A stretch of DNA of 63,489 nucleotides, the filler included, from Kipferlia bialata (lineage: Eukaryota): NCBI GenBank assembly GCA_003568945.1. It is 6 parts of 5 records of this genome, joined end to end, with 100 filler letters (N's around TTAATTAATTAA, not from the genome) between each part and the next. Parts side by side here need not be neighbours in the genome. Positions count along the whole stretch, not along the records: positions 1 to 26,498 come from BDIP01000001.1; 5 more parts are not named here. One strand, written 5' to 3'. Every line of letters starts with the position of its first letter. Position 1 is the stretch's first letter. Made by a program: the position numbers and the translations under genes. Below are positions 15,192-53,400 of this stretch, piece by piece. The notes under the pieces are model-generated. The model was given only the letters and a program-made list of their open reading frames with translations. It was not told the DNA's origin and did no database searches.

Positions 15192-15694
15192 TGATGGGCC
15201 ATCAGGGAATGACGATGAGTCGAAAAGGATGACTCTGAGGAAATGTTTTTGGCGGCTATCAAGCCTAGCCCCTTATGTGATGTATATGAATTATGGCGTA
15301 ACGCCATTGGCGTATCAATGGGCGTTGCTTGTAGGCACCATAGGGCCCATTGGCGAGGCTTGTTATGCTCGCCGTATGTATCACACCATTTCCTCACTCC
15401 AATCAGGTTGCTCTAATGGAAAGCAGTTCCCATACCTCAAGCTATTGTTACATTATTATTATACATATACAGTACATGCTGGCTTTTGATTAGCAGTCTG
15501 CTCTCGGGCGACCACACTACCAATTAGCACAGGATGGATATCGGGTAAATGATGTTGAGGTCATTGAGGTTACTTTAGAACAATCCCAAGACAATCTGCT
15601 GCAAATAATATATATTCTCCTTCAGTCCTCTAGACTGAGGCTAAGACGTAGCTACACGTAACACAAGCGACAAAAACGAACACACACATACTGT

Positions 15695-16874
15695 CTAGGC
15701 GGACGACTGATCGTTAAGGAATGCCTGCATCTCTGTGAGCAGCTTGTGGATGAGCTCGTTCTTGCCCTGCTCCTTGGCCCACTTCATGTACCTCTTGTAG
15801 TAGATGACAGAGTCCTTGGAGCCCGTCCTCAGCACTCTCTCGTACAGACCCATCACAGCCTCATCCGCCAGCTTGGCCTCGGCTATGTCCAGGTACTGGC
15901 TCCACACGTCAGACCGGTCCTTGTAGTCCACCACAAGCCTCTCGAACTCCTCGATGCCCTCCCTCTGCCGGGTGGAGTCCCCACACTTGCACAGGCTCCT
16001 GGCGTACAGAAGCTCGATGGTCTTGATGTTGGCTCTGCACTGCTTGCTGAGGGTCCTCTTGGTGGCACCTGCCGACAGAGACTTCTTGGCACGGACCACC
16101 ATCTTACCGGCGTCCTTGTACTTGGAGGCAGCAAACATCATCTTGATGATGGTGGTCCACAGCTTGACGTTGGCCCTGTGCCTCTTGACCCTGGCTGTCT
16201 GGCCAGTCACCAGCTCGGACATGAGGGAGAGGGCAATGGCACTGTCGGTGTCGGCAATGCCTCCGCAGAAGGACATGTAGAGGTCGGCCTCGTCGAAGGC
16301 CTGAGCCTCCTCACCCTGGGGTCAGCTACGCATACACTAGAGACAGTCACACAAGTACATGAGACGCCTCTAGACCCGTCATACGCCATACCTTGAGGAC
16401 GTTCATGAGGTTGGCAGTGTCCACCAGGTGCTCCAGGTTGAGCCATCCGACCATGACGTTGAGCCTCTCCTTCTCGGTAACTGCCTCATCAGAGGCGGCG
16501 AGGGACAGACCGCGTCTCAGCACGGAGCGGGCCTCATCAGCAGTGTGCCTCTCGGCAAGGTAGGCAGCGTACTGCAGGTATGCATAACTGGGGGTCAGAT
16601 AGAGAATAATACATAATACACTAACGACTGTACAGGAGTGTTCTCCCACCATGTTAGTACTGCCTCAGACAAATATCCAATGTAGACAATATCCAACACA
16701 TACAGACCTGGAGTCGGGGTTGCTGGCGATGAAAGCCTCGTACTCCTGGATGGACTGGGGGGTGGCGCCTGGGGGTGGGAGGGGGGATGCAGCGGCAGTG
16801 AGCATATAGAGTGACAATTACATACCCTCCAGACGGCGCTGCTCGGCCTCAATGGTAGAGTGGGACAGAAGGGC
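15695..16874 (-). CDS. RRP5: rRNA biogenesis protein RRP5, C-terminal HAT/TPR region only (5' part missing)
   Basis: YEAFIASNPDSSYAYLQYAAYLAE...DEARSVLRRGL...EKERLNVMVGWLNLE, KLWTTIIK, FERLVVDYKDRSDVWSQYLD, LYERVL, YYKRYMKWAKEQG follow the Rrp5 C-terminal HAT repeats. Confidence 0.88.
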
Positions 16875-17093
16875 CTGGGGTGAGGGGATGGGGGGGGGGG
16901 GGGGGGGGGCCCCCCACCTCTCCCCCCCCCCCCTCCCCCCCCCCCCCCCCCCCCCCCCCTTCTTTCATTATGTGTCTCTGTCTCTGTGCTTAGTCAACAT
17001 GGTATAGTCATACACCAATATGTCTTTGTATATAATCCCTAACTACATTGTACCGTTGTATACCCACAGTCCCTCTATACACACCAACACCAG

Positions 17094-19032
17094 GCAGTTG
17101 CCAGTGTGGCAGCGACGCAGAGTAGGGAGCACCTCCAGGTCACCCTGTGCCGAGAGAGACGCAGGGCCCTGATGGAGGCCCAGTCCTGTGCCGCCCAGAG
17201 GGGTGTGTACACAGCAGCCCTTAACGATAGAGAGGCAGGGCGTGAGGAGGGTCTGGATGAGCATGCGGTGCAGGAGCATGTGCAGAGACTGCTGGCCAGG
17301 GAGTCTGCCGCACTCATGTATGCCAAGCAGCTGAAGAGAGACATTGCCCGTCGGTGTCAGCCTGCCGGTCCTGCCTCTGCACCATTAGGCAATGGTACAC
17401 AGCTACCATACTCCTCAGGTGTCCAGAGTATGGGTGGGTATGGGGTGGGTACAGATATGTCCTCTACTTCTGGTCTGGAAGAGAGGGACGGTGACTATAT
17501 GGAGACTAGACGGCATGAGCGCCGGTTGAATAGGGGTGGTGCCTCTGTTCACAGTTCTGGTGGTGTTTATGTTCATAGTGGACGTGCTCCATATGGTCAG
17601 ACTTATGGTACACAGAGGGTACACACTCAGGGTGCACGTACCCAGTTTGGACAGTATCAGAGTGGAGGGATAGCTAGTGGAGATATACCTTATCGTCAGA
17701 CATATGATGAGACACATGGTGAGACACACGCTAATGGAGGTCTCGCCTCTCTGAGACAGGGGAATGATAGGACAGGAGCGACCACTACTGTTGCCAGAGA
17801 GCCTGCTGCAGACGGAGGGCCAGTGCACATGTCACCTACCATACCCAGCAGACGGTCAAGACACTATCAGTGTGTGAGGGAGAGAGAGGACTGGTGGGCC
17901 GGGTTTACTCCAGCAACTGATATCATTGCAGGGAGAGAGAAGGGGGCACCTCGGAATGACAGTGGTAAGAGTGGGGAGAGAAAGGGTTCCCACACAAGAA
18001 GAGTGGTGAAGAAGAATGCGCACCCTACTGGTACCACCTGTGGAGATGTGGAGTGTGGGGATCCTAGATGTGCCAGAGGTAAGGCATATAGAGTGGTAAT
18101 GACTACTTATATCGTAGATAGATATTCACTGATGTCACATCAGTGATGTGTGTTCATTCAAGCATTGCCTCACAGCCAGAAACCCGGCGGGAAGTAAGAA
18201 TCAAGTACCAGAGACGCCTGACAGCGGCGAGGAGGAAGTACCAGTGTCTGCAGGCCTGGGTACCGGGTACCAAGCGATCCCATGATGTTGTGGTGTGCCC
18301 CACCTCCTTGCAGAGTGGGGATGAGACTGCACACATTAGCTATCGCACACCCCCTTCCATCCGCACTGTCTGTCCTGATGCCCTGTCTGCCGTACCAACA
18401 GGGGGGCTGGTGCCGGCCATACCCAGGTAGCACTCAATATATTCAGTATCTAATACTAATCACTTCGGTTGCATTCACCATGTAAAACCGTATGTGCATA
18501 TACCACTGACGACCATATAGTTTCACCCTATATATATCTGACGCCCAGGGCCCTGCTCCCCCTGTCAGTCTTCTCCCGACACGTTGCCTGGGGTGTCCTG
18601 TCCCACCTGTTCCTATACGACATGGCTGCTCTGTCCTTCTGCCCTGTCAGAGAGTCACCCCTCGGCATCCAGAGGGTGTGCTGTACCATACCATGCGACG
18701 CAGACTATGTACCACTGCGGCAGCCTGTCACGTACCTCTCTGTGTCCATCCGTATAGGGATTGAGACTGACACACATGGTATGTATAAGAGTGGCAGAGA
18801 GTATGATAATGAGAGGAGTGGGTGGTCCACCATATGCAATGTGCCTATTCCATTTGGGAAGGCGACTGGGGAGGCTCTATTGCCGTCAGTGCGTCGCACA
18901 ACTGCTACCAGCACTGATTCGGAAGGTGATGTGTACCATTCTATACGCATTGAGTGGAGTCAAGAGGAGGAGAACGAAATTCTCGAGGCTATTCGATTCA
19001 GTTCAGTCACGTTATCGCAGTGTAACCAATAG
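17094..19032 (+). CDS. Hypothetical protein, 5'-partial, low-complexity middle, ~3 exons
   Basis: A ~1-kb open exon follows acceptor CCAACACCAG, and further exons follow CTCACAGCCAG and CTGACGCCCAG. No family recognised. Confidence 0.55.
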
Positions 19033-19207
19033 AACCTTCTGATCTCTCACTCATTCCTAAACATATCGAGTTGTTACTGAGCGAGAATTCTATACCCTTT
19101 AGTCATCTATTCAAAAACAGTTTTTGACTGCCCCTCAAATCGTCACGTGTGGAGACAAAGTAAGACCAGAGTCAACGCCATCCTTTTCTTTTGCACACCC
19201 CGCTAAC

Positions 19208-20564
19208 ATGGACATCCAGAACAAGACCGTAGGTGGGTAAATGTGGTTTAAGTTGAGTAGTCTACTCTTTTCCTTGTTATTTGGCAGTGTGGGTGTACAA
19301 CTGTTGATACGTGTTCACTTGAGTCATTCTCATGCCAGCTGAGCACAAGGCCGCTGCCCGCGAGCTTATCGCCGAGCTCCGTGAGCTTTCCAAGTCCGGA
19401 AAGGTCAACCTTTACAACTCTGACTGGCTCCGCACATGGGACCTCTCCCAGGAGGAGCTCCGTGCCACCGTCATCGTGACCCTCGTGCTCCAGCACCTCT
19501 ACGCTGCCAACGTCGACTGCCGCATGTTCGCCTCCGGCCTCGCTGTTTCTGAGTTCCGTGACAACTCCACCCGTACCCGTTTCTCCTTCATGAACGCCGC
19601 CTCCTTCCTCGGACTCACCCCCACCGAGCTCGAGCCCTCCAAGTCCCAGATCGCCCACGGTGAGACCATCCGTGAGACCGCCGCCATGATCTCCTTCATG
19701 ACCGAGGTTGTCGGCATCCGTGACGACAAGTACATCCACGAGGGACACGCCTACCAGCTGTCCATCGCTGAGGCCCTCGAGGCTGCCCACCAGGAGGGCG
19801 TGCTCAACCAGCGCCCCTGCGTGATCAACCTCCAGTGCGACGAGGACCACCCCACCCAGTCCATGTCCGACCTCGTGCACATCGGCCGCCACTTTGGCTC
19901 CCTCGAGGAGATCAAGGGCAAGAAGATCGCCATGTGCTGGGCCTACTCCCCCTCCTACGGCAAGCCCCTGTCCGTCGCCCAGTCCCTCGTGACCCTCCTC
20001 CCCAGGTTCGGCGCTGACCTCCACCTCGCCTACCCCGAGGGATACGACCTCCTCCCCGAGGTGCTCGAGGAGGCCAAGAAGCAGGCTGCCGCCCACGGTG
20101 GCAAGCTCACTGTCGGCCACTCCATGGACGAGGCCTGCGCTGACGCCGAGGTTGTGTACTGCAAGTCCTGGTGCCCATACACCATCCTTGAGAAGAAGGC
20201 CGAGCTCGTGCGCGCCGGCAAGATGGTCTCCCCCGAGATGGACCAGCTTGAGGCCGACGGCCTGTGCCGCAACAAGGACCACATGGACTGGACTGTCACT
20301 GAGGCCCTCATGGCCAACACCAAGCCCACCAAGGACCTGCCCGAGGCCCTCTACATGCACTGCCTGCCCGCTGACATCACTGACGTGTCCTGCAAGGCCG
20401 GTGAGGTCGAGGCCGCCGTCTTTGAGAGGCAGCGTGTCGGCACCTACCACGAGGCCAAGAACAAGCCCTTCGTGCAGGCCGCCATGATCGCTCTCTGCCG
20501 CAAGCCCGAGATCGCTGACACCCTGACCACCATCGTGGACAACGACAAGAAGAGGGCTATGTAA
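19208..20564 (+). CDS. ygeW: Knotted carbamoyltransferase YgeW (bacterial type), exons 19208-19232 and 19339-20564
   Basis: FRDNSTRTRFSF, KSQIAHGETIRETA, GIRDD, NLQCDEDHPTQSMSDL, KGKKIAMCWAYSPSYGKPLSV, YCKSW, ALYMHCLPADITDVSCKAGEV are YgeW-specific motifs. A probable 106-nt intron GTGGGT...TTCTCATGCCAG adds MDIQNKTVA in frame. Confidence 0.95.
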
Positions 20565-20967
20565 GACATCCCCTCAGAGACATTCCTGTCGTCCCGTCGG
20601 CCCGTCCTGCAGGCACACTCGCTATGTATGTAGCTAGGGTGAGTGTGGGAGGGGTCGTATGCCGGGGAACCCAAGCTGGCTCCGACCGTTTAGGGGCTGG
20701 TATATACTCACCACTGGAGACACTCTGCGGCTATATGCTGATGGGGTTTTGTGTAGTGGTGTAACCCGGGGAAGATGAAGATGCGATAAGTAAATAGTCT
20801 TTCGGTAGTTTGTGATTCACAATGTGAATGAGTGTTGTTGGAGGACAGATGTATAACCAGCAGAACATAGTATAGAATCTATATAGTTTTGATGATCTAT
20901 AGATCTACAAATTCATGTATTCATATTCTTATTCTACTCGATCACATAGCAATGATACATAGACCCC

Positions 20968-21832
20968 TCACACTTTATAGCTAACCATCTCTTCCTCCTC
21001 CTCCCCATGCTTGCACATCCCCATACAGCACAGACCCATCACAACCACCACAGAGAGCATCACCAGGCCCCCCACCACAGCTATCAACCCCTCCCTCACA
21101 CTCCACGATAGGATACCTGATGCTGCCTCCACCCACGCCTCATCACTCGTGGTGTACACACAGCTGAAGGACATGCCACTAGTGACCACGGCCCCTGTCT
21201 CTAGGGTGACACACATGCAGTTGGACCCACCCCCTTCAAACACAAAGGAATCAGTGGTGTCAATGATACCGGATGAGGTGGAGGAGAGAGACCACAGGTC
21301 AGACTCGCCCCCGGCAGTGCAGGTGGCCTCGTACACAGAGACATGGGAGTCAGGGTCTAGTACACCTAGGAGTGGGAAGAGGGGAGATGCCGGGGGGAGA
21401 GGGGGGAGAGAGAGAAATAGTACCTGTGCACGTGATGTTGGCCGACACCATGTCCTGTGGGTGTATGGTGAAGGTGTCATACTGGTAGGGCTCGTAGCGG
21501 GTGTTGGACACACTGCCATTGGCTGCAGTGATGTCATGGTTCACATAATCAAGGGCCTTGGGAGTACTGGAAGGTGCAGGGTCGGTAGGGACACCATTAG
21601 CACTACTAGCACTGGCAACACTAGCATTGGATACACTAGCACTGGATACACTAGCACTGGATACACTGGCACTGGATACACTAGCACTGGATACACTAGC
21701 ACTGGATACACTAGCACTGGATACACTAGCATTGGACACTGTGACTGACTGGTGGGTGTTGAGGGAACACCTCAGGGCAAGCACACACCCAGTCACAAAC
21801 ACTATGAGAGAGAGGCCGGTGCCCAGACCCAT
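20968..21832 (-). CDS. Type I membrane protein with signal peptide, (SSASV)n mucin-like stalk and C-terminal TM helix, 2 exons
   Basis: MGLGTGLSLIVFVTGCVLA; intron GTACTA...CACTCCTAG near 21423-21366; TM segment LIAVVGGLVMLSVVVVMGLCC followed by a short tail. Confidence 0.7.
21604..21738. repeat. 15-bp coding tandem repeat (ACACTAGCACTGGAT) x ~9
   Basis: Read directly. Encodes SSASV/SNASV on the minus strand. Confidence 0.93.
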
Positions 21833-47439: not shown

Positions 47440-50400
47440 CTCTCTCTGTTCACGCTTGAGTACAGAACTGGCCCTCTTGAGGCCTCTGCTAATCCTCGAG
47501 GACCTCCTTGGCTCTGGCTTCTCTGCAGCCTTGCTAGCCTTGCTCCGGCCCCTACTTGTCAATGGAATAGTAAAGGTACAATAGTAGCTATGGGATAAGA
47601 GAACACAATAAACTATGGGATAAGAGAACACAATAAACTATGGGATAAGAGAACACAATAAAGGACTTGGTCTTGCCCCTACTTGTTATGAAAAGGACAG
47701 AAACCAACATAAGTAATGGGATAGACAGACAAACAGGCAGGTACATAGACACAGACTATAACTGAACACACAACTACCACAGTACGTGTGTGTATACGTC
47801 ATATATGTAAAGAATACATGATGACACTTACTTCTTGGCCTTGCTGACAGTGACAGTACGTACATCTAAACGAAACAATGACTAACAGAATGTATAGACA
47901 TACGATATTAGTATGATGCATACCTCTTGGGCCTGCTCACAGTGGCAGTGACCTGGGCAGCAATCTTCCTAGGAGAGGGAGAGGGAGAGGGAGAGGGAGT
48001 GGCCACTGAGGATGAGATGTAGCTTAGAATATATACATATATATACATATAGAGAGAGAGAGCGAGAGAGAGAGCGAGAGAGAGAGAGAGAGAGAGAGAG
48101 AACTAGTTAAGAGGTACCAACCTGACGGATCAGACATAACATGGGTGGTCATATATGAGGAGAGAATCAAATAGCAAACCTTGGGTGAGAAGTGTATACA
48201 TATGTATGTGCATATTCCAGTGTATATGTATACTTCTGGAACTGACTTATATGTCACCAATACTACTCAATACTAACAAATATCCCTACTGGTGACTCAT
48301 AGTTACAATACATGAGTTGTGATTGCATATGGTTAAGTAATATAAATAGATGTACTCACCGTCCTTCTTCTCAGCCTCTGGGTTTGAGTTGCGATTGTCA
48401 AGGGCGTACAGAAACTATATATTTAAATATTATGTATCTACTAACTAATTATATTATTGAGTAATAGATGTACTCACCGTCCTTCTTCTCCGTCTCACTC
48501 TTGGGCACATGCTCAGCCTCCTCCTCAGAGGAGTCAGCCTCAGCCTGGGGTCATCACTAGTGGCAACACTACTATAATATATGTATCGGTGACATCATTG
48601 TCATTATATCCAAATATATATCATCCTTCTCAGCAGCCTCAGCCTGGGGATAATAGAGAAGTGACAGTATATATACCAATGTACTATCACCCCCTGGGGT
48701 ATTCGAAAAGTGTATATACTATAATGCATACAACTTATAGAACACACATGAGAACATTACTATTAATACAGATACATTCATTATCCCTGGTCTCCTCGGC
48801 CTCATATACAACGGGATATATTCACTAATACAATCCACACATATGTATCTAAATATCTATACATATATGATATACCTTCTTCATCTACACATATCTATAT
48901 ATTTTCTGTATATAACTCTATATATATATATATGACATACCTTCTTCTTGGCCTCCTCAGCCTCCTCCTTGGCCAGAGTCTGGGGTTAGTACAGTACGTG
49001 TAATACATGAATACATAGTGTCAATATAGTAGAAATACTACATATAATGCAATACCAGTATCGTACTTGGCCAGAGTAATGCAGTAAGAATACTGCACAT
49101 GCGATATAGTTCATATTAATATATGTATGTGTATATATAGAGTGCTTGTCCTGAGTCTGGGGATAATATAGTAAGAATATTGTGTCTCTATATACAATAC
49201 ACGTATATACATGAATGGAATAATCAATACACCTCATTGGTCTCCTCCTCCGTCATCTTCATATATATATCGTAAAATTATATATATATCGTAATAATAT
49301 ATATATCGTAAAATATATATCGTAAAATATATATCGAAAAATATATATCGTAAAATAATATAGCATGAGTAATATATACTTGGTCTACTGCCAGAGCACA
49401 TGAAAATATATATGTACATGTATATATATATATGAAAGAATACCATATTTAGCGGATCACTATGCCTGCTTTGTCTCCTCCATCCTCTGTGTGAGCACCC
49501 CCCGCTCATACATATATGAAAACATGCAGTGTATCACAAAATAAATACACTTATATACATCACCTCGGTCTCCTCCATCTTCTGACGGAGCACCTTGAAC
49601 TCCCACTGTCTCTCTCTCTCTCTCTCTCCATATATACATACTCCATATATAGTGTATAACAATACCTGCTCTGTCTCCTCCATCTTCTGCTTGAGGACCT
49701 TCGTGTCCATCCTCATCACAAAGGCGTCGAAGTCCCTTGCAGTCTGCTCCTGTGTGTAAGACTATACTATATTAGTACACACACATATATATATGTGGGA
49801 GTAGAATATATAGTTACTTAGGTATATAATGAAATGGTCGTCAAAGTCTGAACCGGTCTGTTCCTACTTGTAAGAAGATCAAGTTTCAGTAGTACATATA
49901 TACATATAGGTGGATACAATATAATGATGAATATATGGGTATATATATGTGGTCATCAAAGTCTCTAACAGTCTGCTCCTAAGCGTCGCAGGTAGAGAGA
50001 GAGAGAGAGAGAGACTGAATGTCCCCCAGGAAGGGTATGGGGGTGATGTATTGTGAGATACTAAGAAGGACAGATGTAAAGAAGACGTATGACACGTGAG
50101 GGGCCCTGAACAGAAGCACGTACGTAATCAGTGATATATATATACAGATACACTAATATATATGAGGATATGAAAGGAGCACACATATAAGTATAAACAG
50201 TCATATACTTCCAGAGTTGTATCCATTTACCAGTCCATTGATGATGGTCAGTGAGATATTAATATATATAGATATATAGATATATAGATATATATATGTA
50301 TATATTTATATGTATTGGTATATATAGGAGTACGTATGTAGTTGTATCTACATACCAGTCCATTGATGAGGTCTGTGAGTATGACTATATGTATATATAT

Positions 50401-53400
50401 GAACAAGTATATATAAGAGTATATATGTGTAGTTGTATCCACTTACCAGTCCATTGATGAGGTCTGTGAGTATATATAGATATTTATATACATATGTATT
50501 GGTATATATAGGAGTATATATGTAGTTGTTCCTACATACCAGTCCATTGATGAGGTCTGTGAGTATATATAGATATATATATACATATGTATATACATAT
50601 GTATTGGTATGTATAGGGTATATATTGCATCTACATACCATCGGCCTGTGAGTATATATAGATATATATATATATGTGTATGTGTAGGTGTATAGAGGTA
50701 TATATGTAGTTGTATCTTCTTACCAGTCCATTGATGAGGTCGGTGAGTATGACTATATGTATATACATATGTATGTGTGGGTATGTATTGGTATATTTAA
50801 GAGTATGTATGTAGTTGTATCCACTTACCAGTCCATTGATGAGGTCTGTGAGTATATATATAGATATATAGATATATGTGTGTGTGTAGAGGTATGTATA
50901 GGAGTATATATGTAGTTGCATCTACATACCANNNNNNNNNNNNNNNNNNNNNNNNNNNNNNNNNNNNNNNNNNNNNNNNNNNNNNNNNNNNNNNNNNNNN
51001 NNNNNNNNNNNNNNNNNNNNNNNNNNNNNNNNNNNNNNNNNNNNNNNNNNNNNNNNNNNNNNNNNNNNNNNNNNNNNNNNNNNNNNNNNNNNNNNNNNNN
51101 NNNNNNNNNNNNNNNNNNNNNNNNNNNNNNNNNNNNNNNNNNNNNNNNNNNNNNNNNNNNNNNNNNNNNNNNNNNNNNNNNNNNNNNNNNNNNNNNNNNN
51201 NNNNNNNNNNNNNNNNNNNNNNNNNNNNNNNNNNNNNNNNNNNNNNNNNNNNNNNNNNNNNNNNNNNNNNNNNNNNNNNNNNNNNNNNNNNNNNNNNNNN
51301 NNNNNNNNNNNNNNNNNNNNNNNNNNNNNNNNNNNNNNNNNNNNNNNNNNNNNNNNNNNNNNNNNNNNNNNNNNNNNNNNNNNNNNNNNNNNNNNNNNNN
51401 NNNNNNNNNNNNNNNNNNNNNNNNNNNNNNNNNNNNNNNNNNNNNNNNNNNNNNNNNNNNNNNNNNNNNNNNNNNNNNNNNNNNNNNNNNNNNNNNNNNN
51501 NNNNNNNNNNNNNNNNNNNNNNNNNNNNNNNNNNNNNNNNNNNNNNNNNNNNNNNNNNNNNNNNNNNNNNNNNNNNNNNNNNNNNNNNNNNNNNNNNNNN
51601 NNNNNNNNNNNNNNNNNNNNNNNNNNNNNNNNNNNNNNNNNNNNNNNNNNNNNNNNNNNNNNNNNNNNNNNNNNNNNNNNNNNNNNNNNNNNNNNNNNNN
51701 NNNNNNNNNNNNNNNNNNNNNNNNNNNNNNNNNNNNNNNNNNNNNNNNNNNNNNNNNNNNNNNNNNNNNNNNNNNNNNNNNNNNNNNNNNNNNNNNNNNN
51801 NNNNNNNNNNNNNNNNNNNNNNNNNNNNNNNNNNNNNNNNNNNNNNTTGTTCATGGCCATACCCTCATCCTCCTCAGCTCCCCCAGCAGGGCATACACAC
51901 AGGTCTGGGCATGGGATGCCTCGTCGTGGAACTCTAGGGTAAGAAAAGTATATTTAAGTATCTTGGTATCATTATCATTATAGTCACAAAGAAATGTTTC
52001 ACAATTACTATCATCATGGAACTCTAGGAAGATAATAATATCGTAAGACCGACAAGGGGGGGGGGGTAGTTTGTATATATGATAGACAAAGGGTGTGGAT
52101 ACCTCCACTGATGAGGTTCTTCTTGTTCCCGTCGTCAGATATCTCAATGGACATGAAGTGGACATTCAGAGTGAAGAGGAGGCTCTGCACGGCAGGCTCC
52201 AGCTTGAAGTCGTCACCGAGACTGTTATGAGAGAGAGAGATTATTACCTCAGTATTACTAGTATACAACTATACTAACTTTACAATACAATGTACTGACT
52301 GTACTGACAAACTTAATTCACGCACAAATATACTTATAGATATACATATGCGTGTATGTATATGATATACTGCATATCCATACCTGATGCTGTTTGTCTC
52401 CTGCAAACATACTCTATAATGACTGTATATACATAGTATGTTACATGTATACATAGTACATGTAGTATAGGTAGTAATAGTAGTATCAGACCATACCTGA
52501 TGCTGTCTGCCTCCCCCCACACCCCCACTGTTATCCCTTCACACACATATATATATATATGTGTGTACTCCTCATATCCACACCTGATGCTGTTTGTCTC
52601 CATCCCTTGAAGACAGCATTACGCACATACTGTTATATATATATATGTGTATATATCCACACCTGATCTTGTTTGTCTCCCTCCAGACCTTGTAGATGGG
52701 GTTGCCCTTGAGAGATGCAACGGCAGGACCTGGGTCATAAAGGATATAGAAATGTATAATACATATTATACAGCGCAATATAGAAATATAACAATATGGT
52801 ACTGCCTCAACAGAGTGAGAGGCAACGGCAGGGCCTGGGTAAAAGAGGAACATATCAACAATGATAGAGATACAGAAAGGTATACCATACTAGTACATAT
52901 ATTTCTACAAAGAGGCAACAGCAAGACCTGGGTTACAATGGTACAGACATATAGAGAGACAGAACGAAAGCGTCAATATATATGGAGTCTGCTTAACCGT
53001 AACAAATAGTATTCATAAAACTTATATTAGAAGAAGGTATATGCACTCACCCTGGAGAGCCTTGGCAGCCTCGACAGGGTTTCTGGGGTGAGACACTGTG
53101 AATATGTGTATATGTATATATTAGAATATAAGTATATATCTATATATGTATATACCTATATATATACATATATATATGTGTATACATATGTATATATATA
53201 TATATATGTATATAGGTTACTGGGGTGAGTAAACAATATATACCTTATTAATACTAGCTACATAATAAACACTGTAAGAGAGTAGGGGAATAGACACATG
53301 AACTCAGGGGGAAGTGGCATAGAAACAGGAGTGAATATACACATATATATATGAAGGGATATATACATAATACCATGCACCAACCTGTAGCTCATGGCCA

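What the first reader, a model, noticed from the sequence alone, without database searches (positions are those of the whole stretch)
19208..20564. Bacterial purine-catabolism carbamoyltransferase YgeW domesticated in a eukaryote
Seen: a full-length YgeW with family-specific motifs (FRDNSTRT, WAYSPSYGKPLSV, HCLPADI), embedded among intron-rich eukaryotic genes. It has a probable host-type 5' intron (19233-19338), C-ending codon bias like RPS5/RPL7 and an AGTAAAT signal downstream. Established: ygeW lies in the ygeW-ygeX-ygeY-hyuA-yqeA/ssnA/xdh cluster used by gut anaerobes for anaerobic urate/purine breakdown, it is distinct from ornithine transcarbamylase, and metamonads make ATP from carbamoyl phosphate via carbamate kinase. 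Inference: lateral transfer giving an anaerobic protist a highly expressed purine-to-carbamoyl-phosphate route for ATP.
Basis: partly seen in the sequence, partly recalled or inferred. Interest (0 to 1): 0.8.

Follow-up and report, generated by a model that had tools for sequence, protein, structure and literature searches.

The report
Bacterial urate-breakdown enzyme across anaerobic protists
This free-living anaerobic protist carries and splices a gene for YgeW, an enzyme that gut bacteria use to gain ATP while breaking down uric acid, and published gene tables list likely partner enzymes in most of its relatives, so a pathway described only in bacteria likely also runs in these eukaryotes.

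Summary
The gene (19208-19232 + 19339-20564, 416 aa) passes both YgeW cut-offs and keeps 19 of 19 E. coli active-site residues. It is spliced at the predicted intron and polyadenylated 13 nt after AGTAAA. The host is Kipferlia bialata, whose public model wrongly merges it with the upstream gene and calls it aspartate carbamoyltransferase. It is not a private acquisition: metamonad YgeWs group together and follow host kinship, and a Trichomonas YgeW was noted in print in 2015. A published 19-taxon orthogroup table has the YgeW group in 13, a YgeY-labelled group in 17 and an SsnA-labelled group in 16. Carbamate kinase is in 17 and a separate true OTC in 16. Kipferlia has the YgeY, SsnA and kinase groups. 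YgeW-YgeY-like and SsnA-YgeW fusions sit in the same clade. Best reading (0.6): ureido phosphorolysis in reductive purine breakdown, feeding carbamate kinase. Against: no YgeX, YgfK or XdhD by name, partner sequences not seen, no enzyme assay, mixed expression evidence, donor unresolved. The scan found eukaryotic YgeW twice before on other DNA; the partner-gene evidence is what this report adds.

The parts
19194..19207 (+). 5' UTR (first base covered by the spliced RNA contig is 19194)
   Evidence: tables 7 and 8
19208..19232 (+). YgeW coding exon 1 (MDIQNKTV plus 1 base)
19233..19338 (+). 106-nt GT..AG spliceosomal intron, phase 1
   Evidence: skipped in RNA contigs of X2 and X4
19339..20564 (+). 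YgeW coding exon 2 to the TAA stop; whole protein 416 aa, knotted carbamoyltransferase YgeW
   Evidence: TIGR03316 508.7/500 and NF005538 514.5/453; fold TM 0.89-0.90 to 3q98 and 2yfk
20789..20794 (+). AGTAAA polyadenylation signal
   Evidence: 13 nt before the poly(A) site; same motif before the RPS5 and RPL7 poly(A) sites
20565..20807 (+). 3' UTR; poly(A) added after 20807 (20802 in X7)
17043..19071 (+). separate upstream gene (introns 18079-18179 and 18427-18548, stop 19030-19032; its 5' end was not mapped). Not part of YgeW, but merged with it in public model GIQ79382.1
   Evidence: RNA contig reads 18544-19071 unbroken; mapping of P0412

Best explanation
The gene is a spliced, polyadenylated host gene for YgeW that likely cleaves a ureido group from 2,3-diureidopropionate with phosphate, handing carbamoyl phosphate to carbamate kinase to make ATP, as one step of a likely reductive purine (urate or 2,8-dioxopurine) breakdown route inherited from an early metamonad. 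Shown: gene structure, family, active-site identity, presence across metamonads. Read from a published table: partner-labelled orthogroups. Inferred: substrate, flux to ATP, bacterial origin, and the stand-ins for enzymes not found by name (the eukaryote-type dihydropyrimidine dehydrogenase for YgfK/UacX, dihydropyrimidinase for HyuA, a threonine-synthase-like PLP enzyme for YgeX).
For: Family cut-offs are passed and OTC/AOTC/ATC/PTC cut-offs are missed by wide margins. 19 of 19 residues checked are identical to E. coli YgeW in all 14 aligned sequences: the carbamoyl-phosphate motifs plus the 8 second-substrate residues named in PMC4581275, Q98, D124, Q160, S200, K203, K270, D334, E344. E. coli YgeW plus YqeA makes ATP from 2,3-diureidopropionate in vitro (bioRxiv 2025.04.24.650524; PMC12507026). 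Orthogroup table of PMC10703272, file 3, 19 taxa (tallied in 71): YgeW group 13, YgeY-labelled 17, SsnA-labelled 16, carbamate kinase 17, xanthine dehydrogenase groups 16 and 13, DPD 14, dihydropyrimidinase 9, 'threonine synthase' 14. Of the 13 YgeW-positive taxa, 13 have the YgeY group, 12 SsnA, 12 kinase and 13 the ThrC-like group. Kipferlia has YgeY (GCA61975.1), SsnA (GCA65170.1, GCA65118.1) and kinase (GCA62000.1) members. True OTC is a separate group in 16 of 19 taxa, 12 of the 13 YgeW-positive ones. Five fusion proteins fall inside the eukaryote-side YgeW clade (SH-aLRT 96, quick tree): 2 YgeW-YgeY-like and 3 SsnA-like-YgeW. A ThrC-like gene sits between ygeY and xdh in 3 of 32 prokaryotic ygeW loci (two near-identical), none of which has ygeX in the fetched stretch.
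Against: No partner gene is in the window, and no whole genome was held. I never saw the eukaryotic YgeY, SsnA, XDH, DHP or ThrC-like sequences. Their identity rests on others' labels: the YgeY group on 1 of 2 annotation rows seen (the other says M20 peptidase), and the SsnA group has rows reading '5'-deoxyadenosine deaminase'. 'Diaminopropionate', 'YgfK', 'selenate reductase' and 'hydantoinase' gave 0 hits in those supplements (file 3 was cut when stored). The metamonad DPD's best hits are eukaryotic, and the dihydropyrimidinase group is in only 8 of the 13 YgeW-positive taxa. Joint absence in Giardia and Spironucleus is weak evidence, as these parasites lose many genes. The partner halves of the fusions score below their family cut-offs (YgeY 175-190 against 321; SsnA 343-391 against 444), and their organisms are unnamed. 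PMC6759080 states that M. exilis lacks purine and pyrimidine catabolism. Bacterial ygeW often stands without the upper pathway in the fetched loci.
Confidence: 0.6

Rival explanations
1. YgeW works on ureido compounds but not in a whole purine route. It phosphorolyses beta-ureidopropionate from reductive pyrimidine breakdown (DPD, then dihydropyrimidinase), or ureido intermediates released by prey or partner bacteria, still giving ATP through carbamate kinase.
For: DPD (14 of 19) and dihydropyrimidinase (9 of 19) are labelled pyrimidine enzymes. Beta-ureidopropionase is listed for only 2 of the 5 Preaxostyla, not for the 3 oxymonads that have DPD and DHP. One study has YgeW cut a 3-ureido group, the same group as in beta-ureidopropionate. 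No YgfK, XdhD or YgeX by name.
Against: SsnA-labelled genes in 16 of 19 taxa, and SsnA-like-YgeW fusions in the same clade; SsnA opens the purine-derived ring. The second-substrate site is identical to that of the E. coli enzyme.
Confidence: 0.27
2. It is a second catabolic ornithine transcarbamylase of the arginine deiminase pathway, as the databases and the Preaxostyla annotation have it.
For: Homologues are named OTC in Hexamita and Blattamonas records and in file 5 of PMC10703272. Metamonads use the ADI pathway (PMC5052871).
Against: OTC models score 125 against a cut-off of 281 and 124 against 306. The fold is closer to YgeW (TM 0.90) than to any OTC (0.70 or less). A separate true OTC group exists in 12 of the 13 YgeW-positive taxa, and all 5 Preaxostyla list another OTC.
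Confidence: 0.07
3. On origin only: the gene is an old eukaryotic inheritance lost in most lineages, or was gained more than once, and not a single transfer from bacteria into early metamonads.
For: No bacterial sister group is resolved and the trees are unrooted. In the careful 56-row tree a long-branched Bathyarchaeia row fell among the eukaryote-side rows and the backbone was weak. 9 unnamed metagenomic proteins and 5 fusions of unknown organism lie in the clade.
Against: All named eukaryotic hits among the best 120 are metamonads. They form one side of a branch in 2 of 3 trees (SH-like 99, SH-aLRT 96), and holding them together is not rejected (p-AU 0.44). Fornicate branching follows host kinship as I recall it. 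The family is otherwise prokaryotic in what was fetched.
Confidence: 0.2
4. Bacterial contamination or a misassembly.
For: Bacterial family; the organism is grown with bacteria (recalled).
Against: Spliceosomal intron removed in RNA contigs of 2 runs, poly(A) tail, host codon bias, unbroken DNA contig to a spliced neighbour, and nearest relatives in Dysnectes and Hexamita.
Confidence: 0.01

Closest known systems
E. coli YgeW (PDB 3q98) and E. faecalis YgeW (PDB 2yfk), knotted carbamoyltransferase of the reductive urate / 2,8-dioxopurine pathway
   Same: 52% identity to E. coli YgeW over 381 aa; both family cut-offs passed; 19 of 19 active-site residues; model TM 0.89-0.90, rmsd 1.7-2.0.
   Different: Nuclear gene with an intron and poly(A); no operon and no partner in 63 kb; small insertions shared with other fornicates; activity untested.
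Trichomonas vaginalis YTCase (XP_001326968) noted by Shi et al. 2015, PMC4581275
   Same: Same family in a metamonad; TVAG_038530 and TVAG_537400 share an orthogroup with the Monocercomonoides protein I verified as YgeW.
   Different: That note predates the known function and covers one species in the passages I read; it draws no link to a pathway or to metamonad-wide distribution.
Arginine deiminase pathway of metamonads (ADI, catabolic OTC, carbamate kinase)
   Same: Same energetic logic: phosphorolysis of a ureido group, then carbamate kinase.
   Different: Different enzyme family and a separate orthogroup (q2001360 against q2001822); kept in Giardia and Spironucleus, which lack the YgeW, YgeY and SsnA groups.
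C. difficile UacX/UacY variant and ThrC-like variants of the bacterial urate cluster
   Same: They show that a DPD homologue can replace YgfK (PMC12507026) and that clusters lacking ygeX can carry a threonine-synthase-like gene.
   Different: Whether the metamonad DPD and 'threonine synthase' play these parts is untested; the DPD is of the ordinary eukaryotic type.

Membership tests
YgeW knotted carbamoyltransferase | Curated HMM cut-offs TIGR03316 and NF005538 | tested here: met
   508.7/500 and 514.5/453. Of 12 clade proteins scanned, 12 pass NF005538 and 11 pass TIGR03316 (Hexamita P0128 496/500).
YgeW knotted carbamoyltransferase | Carbamoyl-phosphate motifs SxRT, HPxQ, HxLP | tested here: met
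   S85-T-R-T-R89, R136, H179-P-T-Q182, H-C350-L-P352; motifs from PMC4581275.
YgeW knotted carbamoyltransferase | Second-substrate residues Q98, D124, Q160, S200, K203, K270, D334, E344 (E. coli numbering) | tested here: met
   Q112, D138, Q174, S214, K217, K284, D354, E364: 8 of 8 identical.
YgeW knotted carbamoyltransferase | YgeW fold with proline-rich loop and extra terminal and 240s-loop helices | tested here: met
   Model pLDDT 95.4; best matches 2yfk and 3q98, TM 0.89-0.90; next family 0.70 or less.
YgeW knotted carbamoyltransferase | 3-1 trefoil knot and homotrimer | not tested
   Knot topology was not computed and no complex was predicted; inferred from the fold match.
YgeW knotted carbamoyltransferase | Phosphorolysis of 2,3-diureidopropionate | not testable with these tools
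   Shown for the E. coli enzyme only.
Ornithine / N-acetylornithine / aspartate / putrescine carbamoyltransferase | Curated HMM cut-offs | tested here: not met
   OTC 124.8/280.85, AOTC 114.1/288, PTC 97.3/500, ATC 82.5/236.95.
Reductive urate (2,8-dioxopurine) pathway | Genes clustered in one locus | tested here: not met
   tblastn of 11 cluster proteins against the window hit only YgeW; clustering is not expected in a eukaryote.
Reductive urate (2,8-dioxopurine) pathway | SsnA, YgeY and carbamate kinase in the same organism | tested here: inconclusive
   Kipferlia members are listed in all three orthogroups, but the sequences were not seen or scored.
Reductive urate (2,8-dioxopurine) pathway | XdhD/XdhAC, YgfK or UacX, HyuA, YgeX | tested here: inconclusive
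   Only look-alike groups (XDH, DPD, DHP, ThrC-like) in relatives; Kipferlia cells are blank, but that column shows no GIQ-type accessions (0 hits), so blanks are not absences; no YgeX or YgfK by name.
Reductive urate (2,8-dioxopurine) pathway | Urate consumed to pyruvate through the known intermediates | not testable with these tools
   Needs labelling experiments.

The most novel reading that the evidence does not exclude
Metamonads, including Trichomonas vaginalis, Histomonas, termite and vertebrate gut oxymonads and free-living fornicates, have run an essentially complete anaerobic urate/purine fermentation since their common ancestor. It is built from xanthine dehydrogenase, DPD, SsnA, dihydropyrimidinase, YgeW, YgeY, a 'threonine synthase' acting as diaminopropionate lyase, and carbamate kinase. 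It would be a second carbamoyl-phosphate ATP route beside arginine breakdown, hidden under OTC, ATC and threonine-synthase labels and lost in Giardia and Spironucleus.
Probability: 0.45. Interest if true: 0.82.

Novelty: new variant of a known kind. Interest (0 to 1): 0.62.

Why it matters
A 2025 commentary says the anaerobic urate pathway is restricted to selected anaerobic bacteria (PMC12990295), and the Monocercomonoides genome paper says that protist lacks purine catabolism (PMC6759080). If the reading holds, an entire eukaryotic supergroup has an unrecognised ATP source. Gut protists would then share in urate turnover and nitrogen recycling, and axenic Trichomonas would make this directly testable. 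It also corrects annotations: 'OTC' counts in metamonads include YgeW, and the Kipferlia model GIQ79382.1 is a two-gene merge under the wrong name.

Tried and rejected
Whole-genome search: no genome held. Obtaining eukaryotic partner sequences failed: a YgeY profile over the 50% library gave 150 rows, of which 10 were looked up and none had a eukaryotic name; a search with the L007 ThrC-like protein showed no named eukaryote among the best 120; the Atlas gave prokaryote-dominated first clusters. These are not evidence of absence, since the listings are cut at close prokaryotic hits. The metagenome scan returned 7 loci at 49-52% identity, 6 with neighbours or without, none recognisably eukaryotic. 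Supplements: PMC6759080 not readable; PMC11316075 0 hits for 6 terms in 6 files, one file not searched; PMC4967989 0 hits for YgeW, SsnA and carbamoyltransferase. Contig depth as a measure of expression was rejected: the tool disallows it and the runs disagree. The 720-aa 'fused' Kipferlia protein was rejected as a gene-model error. P0127 (Aduncisulcus, 798 aa) has no second family in NCBIfam at 1e-30 and was not counted as a fusion. P0415 and P0419 look like frameshift read-throughs of bacterial neighbours and were not counted; P0419 was left out of the tree, and P0415 and P0420/P0421 fall outside the clade. The in-frame ATG at 19332 lies inside the intron, so an unspliced start is possible in principle, but the RNA contigs show the spliced form. 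Trees left out P0002, P0003 and P0005 (replaced by fuller cluster members) and L025 (partial); searches used subsets of 56 and 62 rows, with the LG+G4 model and no mixture.

Full report
1. Observation. Of 4 in-frame splice options, donor 19233 with acceptor 19338 gives a 416-aa protein with the three quoted motifs. RNA contigs from 2 runs (X2, X4) skip exactly 19233-19338. The X2 contig starts at 19194, and poly(A) follows 20807 in X2 and X3, 13 nt after AGTAAA at 20789-20794. AGTAAAT also precedes the poly(A) sites of RPS5 and RPL7, but not exactly that of the RRP5-like gene. That AGTAAA is the Giardia-type signal is recalled. Third-position usage matches RPL7 and differs from the upstream neighbour. 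One DNA contig spans 17000-21657 (that run may be the window's source). X2, X3 and X7 are only guessed to be RNA, but they show splicing and poly(A). High expression is not shown: depth was near the ribosomal protein genes in X2 and far below them in X3 and X7, and contig depth cannot rank genes.

2. Identity. The protein passes both YgeW cut-offs and misses those of OTC, AOTC, PTC and ATC. The best solved relatives are 2yfk and 3q98 by sequence and by fold (TM 0.89-0.90; next family 0.70 or less). All 19 positions checked, including the 8 second-substrate residues named in PMC4581275, equal those of E. coli YgeW in 14 of 14 aligned sequences. A search for longer proteins found a 720-aa record identical over the query: GIQ79382.1 of Kipferlia bialata, named aspartate carbamoyltransferase in NCBI and OTC in UniRef. 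It joins the upstream gene to YgeW through a predicted intron at 18925-19168. The RNA contig of that gene reads 18544-19071 unbroken through its stop at 19030-19032, so the merge is an annotation error.

3. Distribution and origin. Named eukaryotic hits among the best 120 are all metamonads: Dysnectes 67%, Hexamita 61%, Aduncisulcus 57%, Blattamonas 57%, three 'Eukaryota sp.' isolates (skoliomonads, recalled) 54-56%, Barthelona 55%, Monocercomonoides 54%. In a 147-row FastTree tree they form one side of a branch (99) with 11 unnamed proteins, mostly from contigs of 1-2 kb. In the careful 56-row tree, 33 of 34 prokaryote-side rows are split off at 96/98, but a long Bathyarchaeia row falls on the eukaryote side. 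With two more long rows added it returns to the prokaryotes (quick tree). Holding the 22 rows together is not rejected (p-AU 0.44), which does not prove a clade. The window's protein is sister to Dysnectes plus Hexamita (99/92 and 100/96), the order expected from host kinship (recalled). No donor is resolved and the sample is biased to close hits, so a single early transfer is inferred, not shown.

4. Partners. None lies in the window, and no genome was held. The orthogroup table of PMC10703272 (file 3, sheet B, 19 metamonads) gives the following (tallied). The group of MONOS_603, which I verified as YgeW, is in 13 taxa, including Trichomonas and Histomonas. A YgeY-labelled group is in 17, an SsnA-labelled group in 16, carbamate kinase in 17, two xanthine dehydrogenase groups in 16 and 13, DPD in 14, dihydropyrimidinase in 9 and 'threonine synthase' in 14. 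True OTC is a separate group in 16. Giardia and Spironucleus have OTC and kinase but none of the others in this list. Kipferlia has the YgeY, SsnA and kinase groups; its other cells are blank, including YgeW, but the file shows no GIQ-type accession, so those blanks are not absences. The authors list the YgeW-group genes as OTC. The two Monocercomonoides SsnA-group proteins have an Anaerolineae best hit at about 1e-147. Limits: I could not fetch these proteins; labels within groups are mixed; several taxa are transcriptomes; diaminopropionate lyase, YgfK and hydantoinase had 0 hits by name, in a file cut when stored; the DPD is of eukaryotic type. Separate support comes from 5 of the 12 longer proteins: P0413 and P0414 join YgeW to a YgeY-like M20 domain, and P0416-P0418 join an SsnA-like domain to YgeW. 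All 5 fall in the eukaryote-side clade (SH-aLRT 96), though their partner halves are under the cut-offs and their organisms are unnamed. A ThrC-like gene lies between ygeY and xdh in 3 of 32 prokaryotic ygeW loci (L007, L029, L030; two near-identical) that show no ygeX, while ygeX occurs in 3 others. Earlier scan notes say the same of bacteria; they are unchecked.

5. Mechanism. In E. coli, SsnA and HyuA open the reduced purine rings to 2,3-diureidopropionate. YgeW removes one ureido group as carbamoyl phosphate, YqeA turns that into ATP, and YgeY and YgeX finish at pyruvate. The two studies differ on which ureido group goes first, and C. difficile uses a DPD homologue in place of YgfK. I infer the same step for the Kipferlia enzyme, with purines from digested bacteria as the likely source (0.6). 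The chief rival is a pyrimidine or scavenged ureido substrate (0.27): beta-ureidopropionase is listed for only 2 of 5 Preaxostyla. The two readings can both hold. A second OTC is unlikely (0.07).

6. What is in print. PMC4581275 already identifies a YTCase (YgeW) in T. vaginalis, with function unknown (passages). PMC12990295 calls the anaerobic pathway restricted to bacteria (part 1 of 2 read). PMC6759080 says M. exilis lacks purine catabolism (passages; supplement unreadable). PMC4967989 reads the Trepomonas XDH, DPD and DHP as salvage (passages and supplement search). Also seen: passages of bioRxiv 2025.04.24.650524 (16), PMC12507026, PMC5052871, PMC7762791, PMC10703272 (45, plus supplement rows) and PMC11437800; supplement search only for PMC11316075. 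Searches: YgeW+metamonad 0; YgeW+protist 2, not opened (19); SsnA+Trichomonas+purine 0 (68); dioxopurine+eukaryot 2, both bacterial papers above (69); 'anaerobic uric acid degradation'+protist 0 (91); YgeW+Trichomonas 3, one opened (92). I found no paper proposing the pathway in metamonads; subscription journals and unread supplements may hold one. The scan itself noted eukaryotic YgeW twice before on other DNA.

7. Verdict. A real, domesticated YgeW, old in metamonads and mislabelled in databases. The single gene is a new member of a known family with a eukaryotic precedent. The likely eukaryotic version of the whole route is a new variant of a known pathway, supported by orthogroup labels and fusions but not by sequences I scored or by any assay. 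Interest 0.62.

Noticed in passing
window 17829-20564 (P0412, GIQ79382.1): The public 720-aa Kipferlia model merges the upstream gene with YgeW and names it aspartate carbamoyltransferase; RNA contigs show two transcripts.
   Followed up: yes
window 19194 (run X2): A 22-base loose end precedes the 5' end of the YgeW RNA contig; it was not seen at other genes in the rows shown, so it is probably a library chimera and not a spliced leader.
   Followed up: partly
P0413, P0414, P0416-P0418: YgeW-YgeY-like and SsnA-like-YgeW fusion proteins of unnamed organisms lie in the eukaryote-side clade; they may mark other anaerobic eukaryotes with the pathway. P0420/P0421 are carbamate kinase-YgeW fusions outside it.
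   Followed up: partly
PMC10703272 file 2, PAPYR_676: The Paratrimastix member of the YgeW orthogroup is named OTC in GenBank and has mitochondrial targeting predictions (TargetP 0.73, MitoFates 0.78), so YgeW may be organellar there.
   Followed up: no
L007 5943-7166 and 11189-12637; L029, L030: Bacterial ssnA-ygeY-thrC-like-xdh-ygeW clusters carry a second conserved PLP gene (weak cysteine-synthase match) after ygeW and no ygeX in the fetched stretch.
   Followed up: partly
L016, L017, L019, L021, L023: YgeW occurs in Patescibacteria-group genomes and a Bathyarchaeia genome, twice beside carbamate kinase and otherwise without fetched pathway neighbours.
   Followed up: no
window 15597-16830, - strand: Spliced gene with a HAT-repeat C-terminus (RRP5-like by recall), poly(A) at about 15597-15600 without the exact AGTAAA motif.
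   Followed up: partly
window 34992-35334, 41934-42307, 50288-50931: Tandem arrays of about 93-117 bp with an AT-rich part, probably repeated exon-intron units; the last abuts a 915-base N gap.
   Followed up: no
window 21605-21736: 15-bp tandem repeat, 8.8 copies, inside a minus-strand transcribed neighbour.
   Followed up: no
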